Virus record (IMG/VR): IMGVR_UViG_2648501787_000016
From: a virus
Taxonomy: Duplodnaviria; Heunggongvirae; Uroviricota; Caudoviricetes
Length of the DNA: 9,444 bases
Reading direction: 5' to 3' (one strand)
The notes beneath the pieces were generated by a model. That model saw only the letters and a list, made by a program, of their open reading frames with translations, was not told the origin of the DNA and did not search any database. A program made the position numbers and the translations under genes. Shown one piece after another: positions 1 to 9,444 of the stretch (positions are counted from its first letter, which is position 1; each line of letters starts with the position of its first letter).

Positions 1-1053
1 TTACGGGGTAATGCCAACCGCTGCCGCCACTTTGTCGCCACTTGGCAGCGTTGCCAGAGGATTGAAACGGAGCGCCGTTTCTAGATGATCCGGTGCCAGA
101 TGTGCGTAACGCATAGTCATTTTTATATCGTGGTGTCCGAGAATTTTTTGTAAGGCCAGAATGTTTCCACCCGACATCATGAAGTGCGCCGCAAACGTAT
201 GGCGCAGAACGTGTGTGAGTTGACCGCGAGGGAGCACGATAGACGTTTTTTCCATCACGGATAAAAATTGAAAATAGCAGTCTGTGAAGAAATTGAACCC
301 ATCAAGCGCCATGATCTCTTCGTAAAGCTCTTTACTGATAGGGATGCTTCTGTTTTTCTTCCCCTTCGTTCTGACAAAGGTAATTCGGTATTTGGTCACC
401 TGTGAGCGGGTAAGATTTACGGCTTCACGCCAGCGTGCGCCTGTGCTTAAGCATATCTTAACTACCAGTGCCAGAATTGGGTCCTGACGTTTGCAATCAG
501 CCAGCAATTCAACAATCTGCTCATGGGTAAGCCATGCCATCTCTTTTTCTGCGATGGTGAATTTTCGCATGTTCTCCAGTGGGTTCGGATACGACCATTC
601 GCCCAGACGGGATAGTTCGCTAAAAACACTACTTAGATAGCTTTGCTCCAGGTTAATGGTGACCGGGCTTGCTCCTTTCTTCCATTTCTCGCTGAAGTAG
701 ATCTCGCCTGTCAGGCGTTTATCTCGATAGTGGGCAAACATTTTAGAGGTGAGATCGGTTGCAAGAGGATTGCCCAGAGCGTCAACCATCAACAGCAATT
801 TGTCATAGACATGCTGCCCAGCTGTCAGAGATTTACCATGTAGTTTGAACCATAGCTCAACCACGTCTTTCAGTGTTCGACGATCCACTGATTCACCCAG
901 CCAGGGCTTTGCTTCGGTTTCTTCCATCGTGTGGCGCTCAAAAGCCAGTGCTTCGCCTTTGGTGGCGAATTGTTTACGCACACGACGCCCACTTCGTCCG
1001 GCGGGGTAACATTCGCAAAGCCATTTCCCTGTGGTTAGTTTTCGTACTGCCAT
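1..1053 (-). CDS. int: P2/186-type tyrosine integrase (site-specific recombinase)
   Basis: 350-codon ORF whose stop codon is at window positions 1-3. Translation carries tyrosine-recombinase signatures (LSTGARWREAVNL; C-terminal HVLRHTFAAHF...GHHDIKMTMRYAHL with the catalytic Tyr). It lies downstream of the repressor gene in the same orientation, as in P2/186 phages. Confidence 0.9.
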   Translation of the reverse strand: MAVRKLTTGKWLCECYPAGRSGRRVRKQFATKGEALAFERHTMEETEAKPWLGESVDRRTLKDVVELWFKLHGKSLTAGQHVYDKLLLMVDALGNPLATDLTSKMFAHYRDKRLTGEIYFSEKWKKGASPVTINLEQSYLSSVFSELSRLGEWSYPNPLENMRKFTIAEKEMAWLTHEQIVELLADCKRQDPILALVVKICLSTGARWREAVNLTRSQVTKYRITFVRTKGKKNRSIPISKELYEEIMALDGFNFFTDCYFQFLSVMEKTSIVLPRGQLTHVLRHTFAAHFMMSGGNILALQKILGHHDIKMTMRYAHLAPDHLETALRFNPLATLPSGDKVAAAVGITP

Positions 1054-1057
1054 AAAA

Positions 1058-1077
1058 AGCCCTCATATCAGAGGGCT
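1058..1077 (-). terminator. Stem-loop (7-bp stem AGCCCTC/GAGGGCT, 6-nt loop) followed on the minus strand by five U and then the int start codon; putative attenuator/terminator that also sequesters the int Shine-Dalgarno
   Basis: Perfect complementarity of 1058-1064 with 1071-1077 read directly. On the minus-strand RNA the 3' arm GAGGGCU is followed by UUUU and AUG at 1053-1051. Function is inferred. Confidence 0.4.
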
Positions 1078-1099
1078 AAATTTAACTGTATATGTAACC

Positions 1100-1120
1100 A
1101 GTAATCAATGTGTGATTACT
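1100..1120. repeat. Perfect 8-bp inverted repeat AGTAATCA / TGATTACT with 5-bp spacer, immediately 3' of the cargo gene
   Basis: Read directly: 1100-1107 agtaatca, 1113-1120 tgattact. It sits about 15 bp downstream of the cargo stop codon on the minus strand. AT-rich stem with no U-tract, so more likely a protein-binding site or weak RNA structure than an intrinsic terminator. Confidence 0.45.
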
Positions 1121-1135
1121 ATGAAACATACATTG

Positions 1136-2812
1136 CTAAGCAACATGTAGTTCATCGTTGGCGGAAGTGGCTGCTTTGCGCTCCTGCTCAATAGCTAGAG
1201 ACTCTCTATATTCTTTCGCCTCTGCAAACATTGTCCAGTGGGCGTTGATGTTCATGTCTTCAATAACTGATTTGATTTCTTTTAAATTTACGTTAAAAAA
1301 CTCTTTTCGTGAGTTAATTTTATTGACCTGCTTTTCGTTGAAAACTTTATGCAGATGGTTTTCTAATGATGGTGCATCATCACTATAAATCATCGCATGA
1401 ACATCGAACGAAAAAGGAACACTAGCATCTCCGAGTTCACGAACACGATCAAGTGGTTCAAGGCGGCGTGTCATTCCAATTTTATATACATCTTCGCCAA
1501 ATGAACCAATATTACTAATGATATAGACGTGGCCTGATCTGGTTTGTTGAGCCATAGAAATAGCTCGTTGATTTTTAGCTTCAGCTTCTTCATATTTTAA
1601 CTGTAGTTCAGCTATTTTTTGCTCTAAAGCTAAGCGTTGTTCTTCATTTGCAAGCATAAGTTCTTTCGTTGCTTTATTTATAGCTTGCTGAATAGCTTTT
1701 TCTTCTTTTTCAGCTTCTTTTATCGCTTTTTCATATTCTCTACGAGCTCTTTCCTCTTCACGAAGCTGTTCTTTAATCCTTCTTTGCTCTTCTTTTTCTT
1801 CGAGCATAATTTCATTAACTGCTACACCCCATTTTAGCTCGTTGAGTCTTGCCTGAAGATAGATGTCACTTATTTTTGCGGACCTAAAGGCAGAGCCATT
1901 GTAATTTACTAGTTGAAATGCATCTTTTATTTCTTGGGAAAGTTTTCCAAAATTGTTGTGTTTGACTTTTGATAAAATACTGTCAACTCTTCCATTGAAG
2001 GCATCCAAAACAAAGTTTATGGCAGTATTACGCCTGTTTTGCTCAACATAATCACACGAAGCAGCTTTATTAGTTTTTATTAATGATTTGGTTAACTCTC
2101 TGGCTTTTTGTAATTCCTTGCCTGCATCTGTAAATTCATAATTTTCTGCCAGCTCATCAAGTACACTACGGTTAGGGATGATCCATTCATCACCATAACC
2201 TTCAATTTTATTTTTCATTGATTTTGCAACTGCTTCATATTTTTCTGCAAACTCTTTAGCTTCATATGCTGAACCAGCAATCTCCTTTGCTCTTTCTTCT
2301 GCATCAGAAATAATTTTTACTGCATTGTCATTAGCATTTGAGATTAGCTCATTTGCTTTATTATTAGCATTATCAAGACGTTCTTTGGCTTTCAGGCGTG
2401 CATCGCGAGCGTCTTTGGTGATTGCTATAGCTTCGCTATTAGCGTTGCTTATTGTCATCTGAGCTTGATAATTTGCTTCGTTTACTGTTTTAGCCGCCTT
2501 AATTTGGGCTTCATCTATTTTTTGCTTGGCTATTGAGTCCGCATTTTTTATCTTATTCTCTGCATCCATTACTGCGCTGTGCAATTCTTCGTATTGCCAC
2601 AATGGTGCTGCTCGCCCTTCAAGCTCTGATAATTCTCGTACGGTCTGTGCTAGTTTTTCTTGATTTTCAATCAGTTGGTTAGAAAGGGCTATGTTGTTAG
2701 CTGTCAGGTTATCTATAGCCGCTTTGTGTTTTTTACTTTGTTTAAATAATATTACAGCTAGAACAGGGGCGAGAAATGCTAATAAGAGTATAACGATGGC
2801 AAATGAATTCAT
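1136..2812 (-). CDS. Membrane-anchored coiled-coil protein with C-terminal GIY-YIG-like (T5orf172/MUG113-type) putative nuclease domain; candidate prophage-encoded defence/exclusion protein
   Basis: 558-aa ORF with RBS AAGGA 7 nt upstream of the ATG at 2812. N-terminal hydrophobic helix (FAIVILLLAFLAPVLAVILF, residues 4-23). Ala/Lys/Glu/Asn-rich helical region with 11-residue periodicity (residues ~137-180). Central globular region (~200-330), second coiled coil (EEKEEQRRIKEQLREEERARREYEKAIKEAEKEEK). C-terminal domain with GIY-YIG-like motifs (GHVYIISNIGSFGEDVYKIGMTRR ... conserved acidic residues), residues ~427-530. Domain assignment is from motif recognition, not a search. Confidence 0.85.
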   Translation of the reverse strand: MNSFAIVILLLAFLAPVLAVILFKQSKKHKAAIDNLTANNIALSNQLIENQEKLAQTVRELSELEGRAAPLWQYEELHSAVMDAENKIKNADSIAKQKIDEAQIKAAKTVNEANYQAQMTISNANSEAIAITKDARDARLKAKERLDNANNKANELISNANDNAVKIISDAEERAKEIAGSAYEAKEFAEKYEAVAKSMKNKIEGYGDEWIIPNRSVLDELAENYEFTDAGKELQKARELTKSLIKTNKAASCDYVEQNRRNTAINFVLDAFNGRVDSILSKVKHNNFGKLSQEIKDAFQLVNYNGSAFRSAKISDIYLQARLNELKWGVAVNEIMLEEKEEQRRIKEQLREEERARREYEKAIKEAEKEEKAIQQAINKATKELMLANEEQRLALEQKIAELQLKYEEAEAKNQRAISMAQQTRSGHVYIISNIGSFGEDVYKIGMTRRLEPLDRVRELGDASVPFSFDVHAMIYSDDAPSLENHLHKVFNEKQVNKINSRKEFFNVNLKEIKSVIEDMNINAHWTMFAEAKEYRESLAIEQERKAATSANDELHVA

Positions 2813-2832
2813 TTTAAAATCCTTTTACTATA

Positions 2833-3429
2833 TTAATTCGAGACTATTGTACTTCTTATACAAGCAACCACTTCAATATCAGAAAATGCACATTCAAAGC
2901 TATTCTCTGCCGTTGTAATTTTAATCATTCCTTTAGGAAGCCTTGTGATTTTTCGAATGGAATAGGTTCCGTCGATATTGATTAACCAGTTTCCATCAAG
3001 TACTTCAGAAAATTTTTGATCACAAATGTATGTGACGAGTCCATCCTGAACAACAATTGGTGATGAAAGGTTTGCAGGAAGAAATGATGAATCGAAGACA
3101 TATGAACCGTCTTCAATCATTTTGCCTGCGGCAAGGCGAAACTTAACAAGCTCTTCTGTAGCTGCTGTCAGCGAGCTTTGCTTAAGGCCTTGTCCGGTAG
3201 TTAACCATTTGAGGGAGGTTCCTGTTTCAAGAGCACATTGGATTATCCAGTCAGCAGGAAATGTATCCCGCAAATACCTGTTCGCTAGTGTGCTTTTTGA
3301 TACTTCCAAGTGATCAGCTAAAGCCTGTCGTGTCGTAAAGCCATAGGCTTCGACTAATCGCTCAATCGCAGCCTTACCACCTTTATTGGGATTTATTTTG
3401 ATCTCACTTGGGTACTTTGATGTTGACAT
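2833..3429 (-). CDS. cI: Phage CI-type immunity repressor (186-CI-like: N-terminal HTH domain, C-terminal oligomerisation domain)
   Basis: 198-aa ORF. N-terminal region (AIERLVEAYGFTTRQALADHLEVSKSTLANRYLRDTFPADWIIQCALETGTSLKWLTTGQG) resembles the phage CI repressor HTH family. No obvious Ser-Lys autoprotease motif, consistent with antirepressor-dependent induction. Positioned opposite the apl/cII genes across the switch region. Confidence 0.8.
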   Translation of the reverse strand: MSTSKYPSEIKINPNKGGKAAIERLVEAYGFTTRQALADHLEVSKSTLANRYLRDTFPADWIIQCALETGTSLKWLTTGQGLKQSSLTAATEELVKFRLAAGKMIEDGSYVFDSSFLPANLSSPIVVQDGLVTYICDQKFSEVLDGNWLINIDGTYSIRKITRLPKGMIKITTAENSFECAFSDIEVVACIRSTIVSN

Positions 3430-3778: not shown

Positions 3779-4288
3779 ATGTTTGATTACCAAGTTTCCA
3801 AACATCCACATTTTGATGAAGCCTGTCGTGCATTCGCACTGCGCCACAATCTGGTGCAACTGGCAGAACGTGCGGGCATGAATGTGCAGATTCTGCGGAA
3901 CAAGCTGAACCCAGCTCAACCTCATTTATTAACCGCACCAGAAATCTGGCTGCTTACCGATCTGACTGAAGATTCAACGTTGGTAGATGGTTTTCTGGCA
4001 CAGATTCATTGTCTGCCATGTGTACCGATTAATGAGGTAGCAAAAGAGAAACTGCCGCATTACGTCATGAGCGCAACTGCAGAGATCGGGCGTGTTGCAG
4101 CAGGTGCGGTATCTGGTGATGTAAAAACTAGTGCCGGTCGTCGTGATGCTATCAGCAGCATTAACTCTGTAACACGACTGATGGCGCTGGCTGCTGTTTC
4201 ATTGCAAGCCCGTTTACAGGCTAATCCTGCGATGGCGAGTGCAGTTGATACCATGACTGGCCTTGGTGCTTCATTCGGTTTGCTGTGA
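3779..4288 (+). CDS. cII: CII-like phage regulatory protein (186 CII family, lysogeny establishment)
   Basis: 169-aa ORF from internal ATG 3779 with AGAGG RBS upstream; the ORF track's 3725 start is an upstream extension. Length and position after the apl-like gene match 186 CII. Sequence character ([45 protein letters not shown]...) fits the CII (CP76) family from memory. Confidence 0.65.
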
Positions 4289-8935: not shown

Positions 8936-8970
8936 TACTGTAAATATAAACAGTGGTTATATTTACAGTA
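8936..8970. promoter_or_regulatory. LexA (SOS) box CTGTAAATATAAACAG at 8938-8953, embedded in a perfect 14-bp inverted repeat (8936-8949 / 8957-8970) overlapping candidate -10 elements
   Basis: Matches CTGT-N8-ACAG with an AT-rich centre, about 17/20 to the TACTGTATATATATACAGTA consensus. The 14-bp arms TACTGTAAATATAA are perfectly inverted around a 7-bp spacer. Located about 45 bp upstream of the next ORF. Confidence 0.7.
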
Positions 8971-8995: not shown

Positions 8996-9184
8996 ATGCA
9001 GGACTATTTTTTGGAGTCTTTGAAGCTCCAGCGCATTGATTTTTTTCTTAAGCTTGTAGCGGCTAGTGAGTGTAGTGATGAAGAGAAGGGGCTGGCTTTG
9101 CAGTGGGTTTCTGAACTAACAGATGAACTCATGGCAAAAATCAGAACCCACGAATACAACCGCTCAATGGATGTCATCAGTTGA
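8996..9184 (+). CDS. Small SOS-controlled protein, candidate Tum-like antirepressor
   Basis: 62-aa ORF with AGGAGG RBS 4-5 nt upstream, directly downstream of the LexA box. In phage 186 the LexA-controlled tum operon encodes the antirepressor. Assignment is by context only. Confidence 0.45.
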   Translation: MQDYFLESLKLQRIDFFLKLVAASECSDEEKGLALQWVSELTDELMAKIRTHEYNRSMDVIS

Positions 9185-9195
9185 GGTGACTTTTT

Positions 9196-9444
<249 letters not shown>

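What the first reader, a model, noticed from the sequence alone, without database searches (positions are those of the whole stretch)
1054..1077. Hairpin sequestering the integrase Shine-Dalgarno, terminator-like, directly upstream of int
On the minus-strand RNA the stem AGCCCUC / GAGGGCU (5 G-C pairs) is followed by UUUUU and then the int AUG. The 3' arm contains GAGGG, which is the only plausible int ribosome-binding site. The structure could both terminate read-through from cI-cargo and block int translation initiation, keeping integrase low in lysogens. Post-transcriptional control of int is known for P2-family phages, but the mechanism here is inference.
Basis: partly seen in the sequence, partly recalled or inferred. 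Interest (0 to 1): 0.5.

Follow-up and report, generated by a model that had tools for sequence, protein, structure and literature searches.

The report
Integrase hairpin embedded in SOS promoter
The hairpin is real and conserved, but it sits inside a previously unnoticed LexA-controlled promoter for the phage integrase, so it probably silences integrase only on RNA arriving from upstream genes, while RNA started at the integrase's own DNA-damage-inducible promoter escapes it.

Summary
The stem-loop at 1058-1077 (minus strand), followed by UUUU and the int AUG, exists as described. Its free energy is -13.3 kcal/mol, it looks like a terminator, and the only Shine-Dalgarno (GAGGG) lies in its 3' arm. 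A hairpin of this kind recurs upstream of int in relatives from Escherichia to Rahnella and Pantoea. The arm sequences differ between relatives but still pair, so the structure is under selection. The U-tract occurs only in the Escherichia/Klebsiella-type relatives. The conserved role is therefore SD occlusion, and termination is an addition.

The whole 82-nt cargo-int spacer is one conserved module. It holds a 186-CII-like inverted repeat, a -35 element, a high-scoring LexA box in the spacer (same layout as the recA promoter) and a -10 element. The 5' arm of the hairpin begins 2 nt after the -10.

A transcript from this promoter should start inside the 5' arm and lack the hairpin. The modelled cost of opening the SD then falls from about 12 to about 2-4 kcal/mol.

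My best reading is an insulator. RNA from cI and the SNIPE-like defence cargo is terminated or left untranslatable, and int is made from its own SOS-inducible promoter. P2, 186 and K139 lack the module. I found no description of it in the literature I could search. No transcript or binding data exist for it.

The parts
1108..1133 (-). Inverted repeat ATGTATG (1133-1127) - N12 - CACACAT (1114-1108). It is a candidate activator site of the 186-CII type. Its right half abuts and overlaps the -35 by one base, and its left half begins 2 nt after the cargo stop codon.
   Evidence: This site and the perfect pE copy at 3779-3805 are the only two sites in the window within 2 mismatches of ATGTTTG-N12/13-CAAACAT. 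Shuffles give 0.02 such sites. The 186 CII operator is annotated in NC_001317, and I read its sequence. The repeat is conserved with at most 1 mismatch to ATGTWTG-N12/13-CAWACAT in 56 of 70 module-bearing relatives, across unrelated upstream genes. Binding is inferred.
1103..1108 (-). -35 hexamer TTGATT of the int-proximal promoter. Relatives have TTGACC, TTGACA or TTTACA here.
   Evidence: In alignment A1 the T, T and A of TTGAnn are invariant in 38 representatives. The type-B relative is flagged as a sigma-70 promoter by the scan. The window copy scores 8 of 12 and falls below that scan's threshold.
1084..1103 (-). LexA (SOS) box TACTGGTTACATATACAGTT. The 16-mer CTGG-N8-ACAG is 1101-1086, and it fills the promoter spacer.
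   Evidence: It scores 23.6 bits on a PWM of E. coli LexA operators. The median for known sites is 19.3, and the maximum in 200 shuffles of the window is 17.5. Of 100 distinct upstream regions of int homologues, 70 have a hit of at least 15 bits at -47 to -54, and the other 30 score 6.4 bits or less. The layout matches the recA promoter.
1080..1085 (-). -10 hexamer TTAAAT with a 17-nt spacer. The alternative is TAAATT at 1084-1079 with an 18-nt spacer.
   Evidence: In all clades a TAnnnT-like hexamer directly follows ACAG: TAAAAT, TAGAAT, TAATAT and TTAAAT.
1070..1075 (-). Predicted transcription start zone of the int-proximal promoter, 6-10 nt after the -10. It falls in the last bases of the 5' arm or the first loop base.
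   Evidence: This is inferred from promoter geometry and no TSS data exist. Searches show the consequence for SD accessibility.
1071..1077 (-). 5' arm of the hairpin, AGCCCUC (the anti-SD).
1065..1070 (-). Loop UGAUAU.
1058..1064 (-). 3' arm GAGGGCU, which contains the int Shine-Dalgarno GAGGG (1064-1060).
   Evidence: The SD lies in the 3' arm in nearly all relatives.
1054..1057 (-). U-tract UUUU between the stem and the AUG. It is the terminator tail and is present only in the Escherichia/Klebsiella/Enterobacter-type clade.
1..1053 (-). int, a 350-aa P2/186-family tyrosine integrase and the regulated gene.
   Evidence: Pfam Int_N and Phage_integrase. RefSeq annotation.
1136..3429 (-). Upstream transcription unit whose RNA runs into the hairpin. 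It comprises the 186-type cI (2833-3429) and, 20 nt downstream, the cargo gene (1136-2812), a SNIPE-like DUF4041 + T5orf172/MUG113 nuclease.
   Evidence: Pfam, annotations and the SNIPE preprint found. No other convincing terminator lies between cI and the hairpin.

Best explanation
The hairpin is a transcript-selective insulator built into the integrase gene's own promoter. RNA made from the lysogenic promoter runs through cI and the defence cargo and then contains both arms. The stem forms, and in this lineage the stem plus the U-tract terminates most of that RNA just before int. Any RNA that reads through has its only Shine-Dalgarno locked in the stem, so it makes little integrase. The 5' arm, however, occupies the stretch between the -10 hexamer and the start point of a recA-type, LexA-repressed promoter that lies directly upstream of int. 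RNA started there begins inside or just after the 5' arm, cannot form the stem and has an open ribosome site. Integrase synthesis is thereby uncoupled from the constitutively transcribed cI-cargo unit and tied to the SOS response, when Int is needed together with Apl for excision. It may also be tied to the phage CII activator during establishment, through the CII-like repeat next to the -35. What is shown: the hairpin, its stability, its conservation with compensatory changes, the SD in its 3' arm, the LexA-box and promoter sequence features with their conservation and fixed position, and the modelled change in accessibility. What is inferred: promoter activity, LexA and CII binding, the start point, and actual termination and translation effects.
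For: (1) The hairpin is -13.3 kcal/mol with z = -2.8. Its stem energy and U-tract score fall within the range of the annotated phage 186 terminators tB, t95a and the lysogenic-operon terminator. (2) A hairpin with the SD in its 3' arm recurs in 45 distinct sequences. There are at least 8 unrelated arm sequences, including AGCCCUC/GAGGGCU, AUGCUCUCC/GGAGGGCAU, CCCCCUU/AAGGGGG, CACAUUCUC/GAGGAUGUG, ACAGUCCUC/GGGGGCUGU and GUAGCCC/GGGCUAC. In 41 of the 45, at most 5% of shuffles that keep the SD fixed fold as well. (3) On a covariance-model alignment of 45 distinct sequences, 97.6% of cells pair against 83.3% in shuffles (0 of 500 reach it). Six of 7 pairs show changes on both sides. The covariation score is 0.422 against 0.189 for shuffles (0 of 500) and at most 0.126 for slid registers. 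The many U-G pairs fit RNA of the int sense strand only. (4) The LexA box scores 23.6 bits, above the median of known operators, and ranks among the top three in the window alongside the double box of the tum operon. It is present at a fixed distance in 70 of 100 distinct upstream regions and cleanly absent in the rest. The order -35, box, -10 is the same as at recA. (5) The module stays attached to int whatever lies upstream. I found more than 20 unrelated cargo families, and in Rahnella and Pantoea the late gene ogr followed by its own canonical terminator. In those loci int must have its own promoter. (6) The 5' arm begins 0-2 nt after the -10 or overlaps it in all clades. The modelled cost of opening the SD drops from a median of 12.3 kcal/mol in read-through RNA to 3.0 in RNA starting 7 nt after the -10. 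The drop is at least 4 kcal/mol in 41 of 45 sequences, and in the window it goes from 12.1 to 2.2. (7) In an IMG/VR pattern scan for the -35 plus LexA box, 65 of 80 matches are followed within 120 nt by an int homologue. (8) Relatives in which int is translationally coupled to the upstream gene have neither box nor hairpin: 186, K139 and the P2-type loci.
Against: There are no transcript, 3'-end, reporter or binding data, so everything functional is inferred from sequence. The window's own hexamers are only moderate: TTGATT and TTAAAT, 8 of 12, with no A at -11 unless the 18-nt-spacer reading TAAATT is used. The tool's promoter scan did not call them. The start point is a prediction. The bases at +6 to +9 are all pyrimidines in the window, which is not ideal for initiation. 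Even without the 5' arm the SD is not fully free, with about 2-4 kcal/mol still needed to open it. Within the window's own clade covariation is thin, with one double change and 40 of 500 shuffles reaching it. The strong covariation figures come from an alignment fitted to the structure. A LexA-repressed promoter as the only source of Int leaves open how Int is supplied at lysogenisation. The CII-like repeat would answer this, but in this clade it has 2 mismatches and 12-nt spacing instead of 13, and the -35 is good enough not to need an activator. A few module-bearing relatives (L026, L045, L036) have no convincing hairpin.
Confidence: 0.55

Rival explanations
1. int has no promoter of its own and is the last gene of the cI-cargo operon. 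The hairpin is a leaky terminator and SD clamp that sets a constitutively low Int level in lysogens, and the small read-through fraction is the source of all Int.
For: [quoted passage not shown] The hairpin has terminator anatomy and holds the SD. The window's -35 and -10 are only moderate.
Against: It does not explain a 23.6-bit LexA box flanked by -35 and -10 elements in recA geometry, held at a fixed distance from the AUG in 70 distinct relatives. In Rahnella and Pantoea the same module follows ogr and a canonical terminator, where no lysogenic operon can feed int.
Confidence: 0.15
2. The hairpin is part of the int mRNA made from the LexA-controlled promoter, with the start point at or before the first base of the 5' arm. 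It then acts on all int transcripts as a 5'-terminal stem-loop that dampens translation and/or stabilises the mRNA, and in the Escherichia clade as a promoter-proximal attenuator. Int stays low even during SOS.
For: Integrases are generally kept at low levels. In clades with 10-13 bp stems a part of the stem could survive a start inside it. Start-site choice cannot be read from sequence with certainty.
Against: The 5' arm starts 0-2 nt after the -10 hexamer or overlaps it. From general knowledge of E. coli promoters, sigma-70 starts lie about 6-10 nt after the -10, which removes 4 or more of the 7 arm bases here. A start at 1075-1078 would be only 2-5 nt from the -10. In one search the cost of opening the SD falls with each base the start moves downstream, from 7.1 kcal/mol at 1075 through 5.9 at 1074 to 3.8 at 1073, and then plateaus at about 3.3-3.4 from 1072 onward.
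Confidence: 0.15
3. The hairpin is simply the intrinsic terminator of the cargo (moron) or cI-cargo unit, and the overlap with the int SD is incidental, caused by a tight spacer.
For: It has a GC-rich stem and a U-tract 58 nt after the cargo stop, and no other terminator follows cI-cargo. Rfam gives only sub-threshold matches to the terminator hairpins of sRNAs.
Against: The hairpin travels with int and not with the cargo. The same hairpin type sits next to many unrelated cargo families, and the same cargo family sits next to different hairpin types. SD pairing is conserved where the U-tract is absent, and in the two loci read in full a separate terminator already sits upstream.
Confidence: 0.1
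4. It is a DNA-level element, either a palindromic operator for a phage protein (Int, Apl or CI) or a cruciform, and not an RNA structure.
For: It is an inverted repeat lying over the predicted start point of a promoter, which is a typical repressor position.
Against: The sequence is not conserved but the pairing is, which is the signature of RNA and not of a protein site. Frequent U-G pairs (for example 12 cells at one pair) would be A-C mismatches on the other strand. It does not resemble the annotated 186 CI half-sites ATTCAC/GTGAAT.
Confidence: 0.03

Closest known systems
IS10/Tn10 'fold-back inhibition' and the 5' terminators or RBS-sequestering stems of insertion sequences (Davis, Simons & Kleckner 1985; IS200, Beuzon et al. 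[quoted passage not shown]
   Same: In both cases a recombinase gene of a mobile element is shielded from transcription coming from outside. Read-through RNA carries a segment upstream of the element's own start point that pairs with the ribosome site and/or forms a terminator, and the native transcript lacks that segment.
   Different: Here the gene is a phage tyrosine integrase and not a transposase. The 'outside' transcription is the phage's own lysogenic and defence-cargo unit. The native promoter carries a LexA operator. The start point is not mapped, so membership rests on geometry. My account of the IS10 mechanism is from memory and the original paper was not readable here.
Canonical SOS promoters such as recA, and LexA control of integron integrases intI (PMC3108266)
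   Same: A CTG-N10-CAG LexA box fills the -35/-10 spacer in the same order as at recA. As in integrons, it would make a site-specific recombinase inducible by DNA damage.
   Different: No LexA binding or induction has been shown. The integrase belongs to a different family and to a prophage. The combination with an anti-SD/terminator hairpin and a CII-like repeat is not part of the integron arrangement.
Phage lambda int control: the CII-activated PI promoter and sib retroregulation (lambda CII activating int is stated in PMC7708051; the rest is from general knowledge)
   Same: Whether an int transcript is productive depends on which promoter made it, and an RNA structure does the discriminating. 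A CII-type activator site next to an int-proximal promoter would parallel PI.
   Different: In lambda the discriminating structure is 3' of int and works through RNase III and RNA decay. Here it is 5' of int and works through termination and SD occlusion. LexA does not act at lambda PI. The 7-bp stem here is too short to be an RNase III site.
The lysogenic operons of phages 186 (cI-int) and P2 (C-int), the model relatives
   Same: The integrase family is the same (186 Int 54.5%, P2 Int 38% identity). The 186-type cI/apl/cII switch and the LexA-controlled tum operon are present in the window.
   Different: In 186 the cI stop overlaps the int start, with no spacer, box or hairpin. P2 has a 115-nt spacer with a different hairpin that does not include the SD, and no LexA box. 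K139 couples glo and int.

Membership tests
Intrinsic (Rho-independent) terminator | GC-rich stem of about 5-14 bp with a 3-8 nt loop | tested here: met
   The stem has 7 bp (5 G-C), the loop 6 nt, and the energy is -13.3 kcal/mol. This is comparable with the annotated 186 terminators.
Intrinsic (Rho-independent) terminator | U-rich tract immediately 3' of the stem | tested here: met
   The window has UUUU plus the closing U. The tract is not conserved: it is absent in the Yersinia, Serratia, Rahnella, Pantoea and Brenneria relatives.
Intrinsic (Rho-independent) terminator | RNA 3' ends at the U-tract in vivo or in vitro | not testable with these tools
   This needs Term-seq, 3' RACE or in vitro transcription.
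SD-sequestering 'fold-back' insulator of the IS10 type | Ribosome binding site base-paired in the stem | tested here: met
   GAGGG lies in the 3' arm. Opening it costs about 9-14 kcal/mol in read-through RNA. The pairing is conserved with compensatory changes.
SD-sequestering 'fold-back' insulator of the IS10 type | The complementary arm lies upstream of the native transcription start, so the native mRNA lacks it | tested here: inconclusive
   The 5' arm begins 0-2 nt after the predicted -10 in all clades, so a start 6-10 nt after the -10 removes most of it. The start point is not mapped.
SD-sequestering 'fold-back' insulator of the IS10 type | Read-through transcripts are translationally inactive while native ones are active | not testable with these tools
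   This needs translational fusions driven from upstream and native promoters, with stem and compensatory mutants.
LexA-repressed (SOS) promoter | Match to the gammaproteobacterial LexA operator CTGT-N8-ACAG | tested here: met
   TACTGGTTACATATACAGTT scores 23.6 bits against a median of 19.3 for known sites and a maximum of 17.5 in shuffles. The operator list was recalled from memory.
LexA-repressed (SOS) promoter | Operator overlaps core promoter elements | tested here: met
   The box fills the spacer between TTGATT and TTAAAT, in the same order as at recA. The type-B relative is called as a promoter by the scan.
LexA-repressed (SOS) promoter | Conservation of the operator across orthologous loci | tested here: met
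   Of 100 distinct upstream regions, 70 score at least 15 bits at -47 to -54, and the rest score 6.4 or less.
LexA-repressed (SOS) promoter | LexA binding and DNA-damage induction | not testable with these tools
   This needs EMSA or ChIP, and reporter or RNA-seq assays with and without mitomycin C in lexA(Ind-) and lexA(Def) strains.
Phage 186 CII-activated promoter (pE type) | Inverted half-sites ATGTTTG / CAAACAT 13 nt apart, with the proximal half next to the -35 | tested here: inconclusive
   The window has ATGTATG-N12-CACACAT, with 2 mismatches and spacing short by 1, abutting the -35. Relatives show 0-1 mismatch in 56 of 70, with both N12 and N13 spacing.
Phage 186 CII-activated promoter (pE type) | Weak -35 that depends on the activator | tested here: not met
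   Most relatives have TTGACC, TTGACA or TTTACA, which are near-consensus -35 hexamers.
Known RNA families (Rfam: riboswitches, thermometers, leaders, sRNAs) | Score at or above the family's gathering threshold | tested here: not met
   The best hit is RyhB at 28.5 bits against a threshold of 55. All hits are sub-threshold matches centred on the terminator-like stem.

The most novel reading that the evidence does not exclude
A large lineage of P2/186-like prophages of Enterobacterales has replaced the textbook arrangement, in which int rides on the lysogenic operon, with a compact control node of about 80 nt that I did not find described. The node is an int-private promoter that is LexA-repressed and possibly CII-activated, and its discriminator and start region doubles as the anti-SD arm of a terminator hairpin. 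Only RNA born at this promoter can make integrase. This frees the cI-int junction to act as a swap site for constitutively expressed defence genes (SNIPE here, and more than 20 other families) without disturbing integration and excision control.
Probability: 0.4. Interest if true: 0.7.

Novelty: new variant of a known kind. Interest (0 to 1): 0.6.

Why it matters
Integrase levels decide whether a prophage stays put, excises cleanly or is lost. The model phages P2 and 186 suggest that int simply rides on the repressor transcript. This locus suggests a different and widespread solution. About a fifth of complete E. coli genomes (1135 of 5426) have a megablast match to this int-cargo-cI region. 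In this solution int is walled off from upstream transcription by an RNA stem and has its own DNA-damage-responsive promoter.

That would explain how a defence-gene hotspot can sit between repressor and integrase and be expressed in lysogens without over-producing a recombinase. It would add a second SOS input to 186-type induction, namely Int supply alongside the Tum antirepressor. It would also give a compact natural part, a promoter nested in a terminator/anti-SD hairpin, for insulating genes from read-through. All of this can be tested directly with standard reporter and 5'/3'-end mapping experiments.

Tried and rejected
Rfam search of 950-1250 found nothing above any gathering score, so I rejected riboswitch, thermometer, leader and sRNA readings.

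A MAFFT alignment of 38 representatives (A1) aligned the promoter and LexA box well but scrambled the hairpins between clades. I therefore used per-sequence folding and a covariance-model alignment.

Covariation within the window's own clade was too thin to carry weight: one double change, with 40 of 500 shuffles reaching it.

I checked whether the model phages carry the element. In 186 the cI stop overlaps the int start. P2 has a different, non-SD hairpin and no box. K139 couples glo and int. I fetched ENT90 hoping for the ogr-int arrangement, but it turned out to be 186-type in reverse orientation.

I considered other identities for the upstream inverted repeat. The Ogr/B late-promoter dyad TGT-N12-ACA (from memory) does not fit, because the spacing here is TGT-N18-ACA. 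The 186 CI half-sites ATTCAC/GTGAAT show no resemblance. It is not an RNA hairpin either, because it is AT-rich and conserved as sequence without covariation.

I rejected an RNase III, sib-like site because the stem is only 7 bp and lies 5' of int.

Literature searches for LexA or SOS control of P2/186-family int, and for this hairpin, found nothing. The P2 hotspot and regulatory-region papers do not mention LexA or terminators in this context.
Full report
OBSERVATION. The minus strand reads TTAAAT-TT-AGCCCTC-TGATAT-GAGGGCT-TTTT-ATG. The stem is 1077-1071 paired with 1064-1058 (7 bp, 5 G-C). The loop is 1070-1065, four unpaired U follow at 1057-1054, and the int ATG is 1053-1051. RNAfold gives this hairpin as both the MFE and the centroid at -13.3 kcal/mol. 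Shuffles average -7.2 +/- 2.2 and 1 of 200 folds as well. The hairpin survives in a 151-nt context. The terminator scan lists it, but that scan over-calls, with 18 sites found against 10 expected. GAGGG (1064-1060), 6 nt before the AUG, is the only candidate Shine-Dalgarno. RefSeq uses the same int start.

CONTEXT. The window is the early region of a P2/186-like (Peduoviridae) prophage of E. coli. Its first 3.5 kb are identical to strain SCU-118 and 99.9% identical to phage vB_EcoM-813R9. On the minus strand lie a 186-type cI (2833-3429), a cargo gene 20 nt downstream (1136-2812) and then int (1-1053), 82 nt after the cargo stop. The cargo has DUF4041 and T5orf172/MUG113 domains, and newer RefSeq annotation calls it 'SNIPE associated'. 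SNIPE is a membrane-bound anti-phage nuclease (bioRxiv 10.1101/2025.11.03.685801; Pfam). On the plus strand are apl/cox, cII, fil, B, a methylase, A and a split tum operon.

THE HAIRPIN IS PART OF A LARGER CONSERVED MODULE. I fetched 159 loci encoding relatives of this int from genomes and IMG/VR and compared the DNA upstream of the start codon. Relatives with 55-100% Int identity share a module that fills the whole spacer. They come from Escherichia, Klebsiella, Enterobacter, Citrobacter, Raoultella, Kluyvera, Serratia, Yersinia, Rahnella, Ewingella, Pantoea, Brenneria, Winslowiella and Mixta. The module consists of:
- an inverted repeat ATGTWTG-N12/13-CAWACAT;
- a -35 hexamer (TTGACC, TTGACA, TTTACA; TTGATT in the window);
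- a 16-mer CTG(T/G)-N8-ACAG;
- a TAnnnT-like -10 hexamer;
- a hairpin whose 3' arm is the SD;
- the ATG.

In the window these elements are at 1133-1108, 1108-1103, 1101-1086, 1085-1080, 1077-1058 and 1053-1051.

THE 16-MER IS A HIGH-QUALITY LexA BOX IN A recA-TYPE PROMOTER. I built a PWM from 25 E. coli LexA operators recalled from memory (Lewis 1994; Fernandez de Henestrosa 2000). On it the 20-mer 1103-1084 scores 23.6 bits. Leave-one-out scores of the known sites have a median of 19.3, and the best score in 200 shuffles of the window is 17.5. The only other high scorers in the window are the two overlapping boxes at 8936-8970 in front of the tum operon (pattern count). Among 100 distinct upstream regions of int homologues, 70 have a hit of at least 15 bits (median 23.8), always starting 47-54 nt before the ATG. 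The other 30 score 6.4 bits or less. The order of elements matches the E. coli recA promoter, TTGATA-CTGTATGAGCATACAG-TATAAT (the hexamer assignment is established knowledge). The type-B relative TTGACA-CTGGTTATACATACAG-TAAAAT is called as a sigma-70 promoter by the scan. The window's own hexamers, TTGATT and TTAAAT, score 8 of 12 and fall below that scan's cut-off. A pattern scan of IMG/VR for the -35 plus box returned 80 loci I could analyse. In 65 of them an int homologue begins within 120 nt. Most of the remainder look like chance matches, and two are double-box SOS promoters of another gene.

THE HAIRPIN IS UNDER SELECTION AS RNA. Folding the -10-to-ATG segment of 45 distinct sequences gives a hairpin with the SD in the 3' arm in nearly all of them. 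The arm sequences are unrelated between clades. Type A, as in the window, is AGCCCUC/GAGGGCU. Type B is AUGCUCUCY/GGAGGGCAU. Kluyvera has AAACUCUCCUAAA/UUUAGGAGAGUUU, Serratia has GUAGCCC/GGGCUAC and Yersinia has CCCCCUU/AAGGGGG. Rahnella has CACAUUCUC/GAGRAUGUG, Ewingella has UCCUCCAUU/AAUGGAGGA and Brenneria has ACAGUCCUC/GGGGGCUGU. The outer parts of the stems are not constrained by the SD, yet they are complementary in every clade. When only the bases between the -10 and the SD are shuffled, at most 5% of shuffles fold as well as the real sequence in 41 of 45 cases. Within the window's clade the evidence alone is thin: one C-G to U-A double change, two wobble changes, and 40 of 500 shuffles reaching the observed value. 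I built a covariance model on that clade and used it to align 45 distinct sequences from all clades. On that alignment 97.6% of cells pair against 83.3% in shuffles (0 of 500), and 6 of 7 pairs have changes on both sides. There are 37 double-change cells against 8.9 expected. The covariation score is 0.422 against 0.189 (0 of 500) and at most 0.126 for slid registers. That alignment is fitted to the structure, so these figures lean towards it. The many U-G pairs would be A-C mismatches on the opposite strand, which points to RNA of the int sense strand and not to a DNA palindrome.

TERMINATION IS LINEAGE-SPECIFIC AND SD OCCLUSION IS GENERAL. The U-tract is present in the Escherichia/Klebsiella/Enterobacter-type sequences. 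It is absent in Serratia, Yersinia, Rahnella, Pantoea and Brenneria, where the 3' arm runs up to or into the start codon. In the Rahnella and Pantoea loci I read in full, the gene upstream of the module is not cI-cargo but the late genes D and ogr in the same orientation. A canonical terminator (GCCCGC-GAAA-GCGGGC-TTTTT in L078, AGCCCGC-TCA-GCGGGCT-TTTT in L031) sits between ogr and the module. Two conclusions follow. First, int must have its own promoter there, which is independent support for the LexA-box promoter. Second, the hairpin is kept even where a separate terminator exists, so its core job is SD occlusion. In the window's lineage there is no other terminator after cI-cargo, and the hairpin has gained a U-tract. 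Its stem energy and U-tract score (-13.3 kcal/mol; T score 3.47; d about +10 on the d'Aubenton-Carafa discriminant as I recall it) fall within the range of the annotated 186 terminators tB, t95a and the lysogenic-operon terminator.

GEOMETRY. The 5' arm starts 0-2 nt after the -10 hexamer, or overlaps it, in every clade. From general knowledge of E. coli promoters, sigma-70 transcripts start about 6-10 nt after the -10, most often at 7. In the window this is 1074-1070, that is, the last four bases of the 5' arm or the first loop base. In type B the best start is the A in the loop. I computed the partition-function cost of making the SD single-stranded. In the window it is 9-14 kcal/mol for RNAs that begin anywhere upstream of 1076. 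It is 3.8 kcal/mol for a start at 1073 and 3.3-3.4 for 1072-1068. Across the 45 distinct sequences the median is 12.3 kcal/mol for read-through RNA and 3.0 for RNA starting 7 nt after the -10. The drop is at least 4 kcal/mol in 41 of 45. The spacer is short, so the position of the arm is not independent evidence of design. The consequence still holds: the stem cannot form in RNA born at this promoter.

MODULE AND NEIGHBOURS. The gene immediately upstream of the module belongs to more than 20 unrelated families, and most end 70-110 nt before the int ATG. The same hairpin type occurs beside different cargo families and the reverse also holds. Int proteins that are 100% identical carry either type A or type B modules. 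The megablast match to Klebsiella phage 4LV2017 breaks at 1064, inside the stem. The module is therefore an int-linked unit at the edge of a cargo-exchange site. A defence hotspot between cI and int has been described for K139-like Vibrio phages (PMC9122126). The P2 survey in PMC13586616 reports a minor hotspot between integrase and primase. Neither paper mentions LexA or a terminator. In K139 itself glo and int overlap, with no module. In 186 the cI stop overlaps the int start. P2 has a 115-nt C-int spacer with a different hairpin that does not include the SD, and no LexA box.

THE UPSTREAM REPEAT. The 186 CII operator at pE, annotated in NC_001317, reads ATGTTTG-N13-CAAACAT. The window has a perfect copy at its own pE (3779-3805) and encodes a CII (Pfam Phage_CP76). 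The only other site in the window within 2 mismatches is ATGTATG-N12-CACACAT at 1133-1108, next to the int -35, against 0.02 such sites in shuffles. In 56 of 70 module-bearing relatives the repeat has at most 1 mismatch to ATGTWTG-N12/13-CAWACAT, and both spacings occur. This suggests a CII input like lambda PI, which would supply Int at establishment. It remains a lead for four reasons: the spacing differs by 1 in this clade, the -35 is already good, I found the pattern by eye, and I could not check whether the Rahnella-type phages encode CII.

MECHANISM. My best explanation (confidence about 0.55) is a transcript-selective insulator. RNA from pL/pE through cI and the cargo is terminated at 1054-1057, or if it reads through, has its SD locked. 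RNA from the int-proximal LexA-repressed promoter starts inside the 5' arm and is translatable. Int is thus uncoupled from the constitutively transcribed repressor and defence unit and tied to the SOS response. In a 186-type phage the SOS response also releases Tum (LexA boxes at 8936-8970) and, through CI inactivation, the excisionase Apl. The rivals are:
- int has no promoter and depends on leaky read-through (0.15);
- the hairpin is part of the int mRNA and dampens or stabilises all int transcripts (0.15);
- it is a plain cargo terminator whose SD overlap is incidental (0.10);
- it is a DNA-level operator (0.03).

COMPARISON WITH KNOWN SYSTEMS. In logic the closest systems are the insertion sequences that protect their transposase from outside transcription. 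They use a 5' terminator and/or a stem that pairs the ribosome site with sequence upstream of the native start. The examples are IS10 'fold-back inhibition' (Davis, Simons & Kleckner 1985) and IS200 (Beuzon 1999). Both are cited in PMC2965389, whose Figure 7 legend describes such IS 5' elements. My account of the mechanisms is from memory. LexA control of a recombinase is known for integron integrases (PMC3108266). Promoter-dependent fate of int RNA is known for lambda (PI/CII and sib), but there the structure is 3' of int and acts through RNase III. The element here combines these ideas in a phage integrase gene and is absent from the model relatives P2 and 186. In eight full-text searches and several targeted reads I found no description of it. 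The library lacks most subscription-journal papers, so this absence is weak evidence. I class it as a new variant of a known kind.

LIMITS. Nothing here measures RNA, protein or binding. Promoter activity, LexA and CII binding, the start point, termination efficiency and the translational effect are all inferred. The LexA operator list, the terminator discriminant and the rule for start-site distance come from memory. The loci were sampled through peptide patterns of this int, so the counts describe that sample and not nature.

Noticed in passing
window 8936-8970 (+), upstream of ORFs 8996-9184 and 9196->9444: Two overlapping LexA boxes, TACTGTAAATATAAACAGTG and CAGTGGTTATATTTACAGTA (24.0 and 17.6 bits), precede a 62-aa ORF and a DinI-like ORF. 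This looks like the 186 p95/tum operon with tum split in two. PMC3121763 describes the same split for Fels-2 and PSP3, with the antirepressor upstream and the DinI homologue downstream.
   Followed up: partly
window 9173-9198 (+): A second 'hairpin + TTTTT + ATG' arrangement, GTCATCAGTTGAGGTGAC-TTTTT-ATG. It overlaps the stop codon of the 62-aa ORF and holds the GAGG of the DinI-like ORF's ribosome site. The stem is weaker (6 pairs, 3 G-C). I did not test it for conservation.
   Followed up: no
window 3779-3805: A perfect 186-type CII operator, ATGTTTG-N13-CAAACAT, at the start of cII. It is presumably the establishment promoter pE reading leftward into cI.
   Followed up: partly
window 1136-2812 (-); loci L003-L159: The cI-int junction is a cargo swap site. 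More than 20 unrelated gene families occupy it in relatives. They include this SNIPE-like DUF4041 + T5orf172 protein and a 64-aa secreted or lipoprotein-like peptide (L081). Most cargo ORFs end 70-110 nt before the int ATG, so the conserved int-proximal module fills most or all of that gap. In the window the cargo ORF ends 2 nt before the module's left edge.
   Followed up: partly
L163 (E. coli SCU-118 chromosome, between rcdA and ybjL): In this strain the element is a remnant of about 4.6 kb: int, SNIPE-like gene, cI, apl, a truncated cII and ogr, followed directly by host DNA. The defence gene and the int control module are intact although the phage is dead.
   Followed up: no
L078 2602-3010, L031 2615-3010 (Rahnella, Pantoea prophages): In these relatives int lies downstream of the tail gene D and ogr in the same orientation, which is the opposite orientation to P2 and 186. 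It is separated from ogr by a canonical terminator and the same LexA-box module.
   Followed up: partly
window 1102-1120 (-): An AT-rich inverted repeat, GTAATCA-CACAT-TGATTAC, overlaps the -35 and the right half of the CII-like repeat. It is seen only in the SNIPE-linked variant of the module and is probably a by-product of TTGATT replacing TTGACC.
   Followed up: no
L021 (Buttiauxella MAG), about 40 nt upstream of the int homologue: There is no LexA box, but a strong hairpin TTAGCGCCA-TTAG-TTGGCGCTAA followed by TATTTTATG lies directly before the apparent start. This may be an independent case of a terminator abutting an int start.
   Followed up: no
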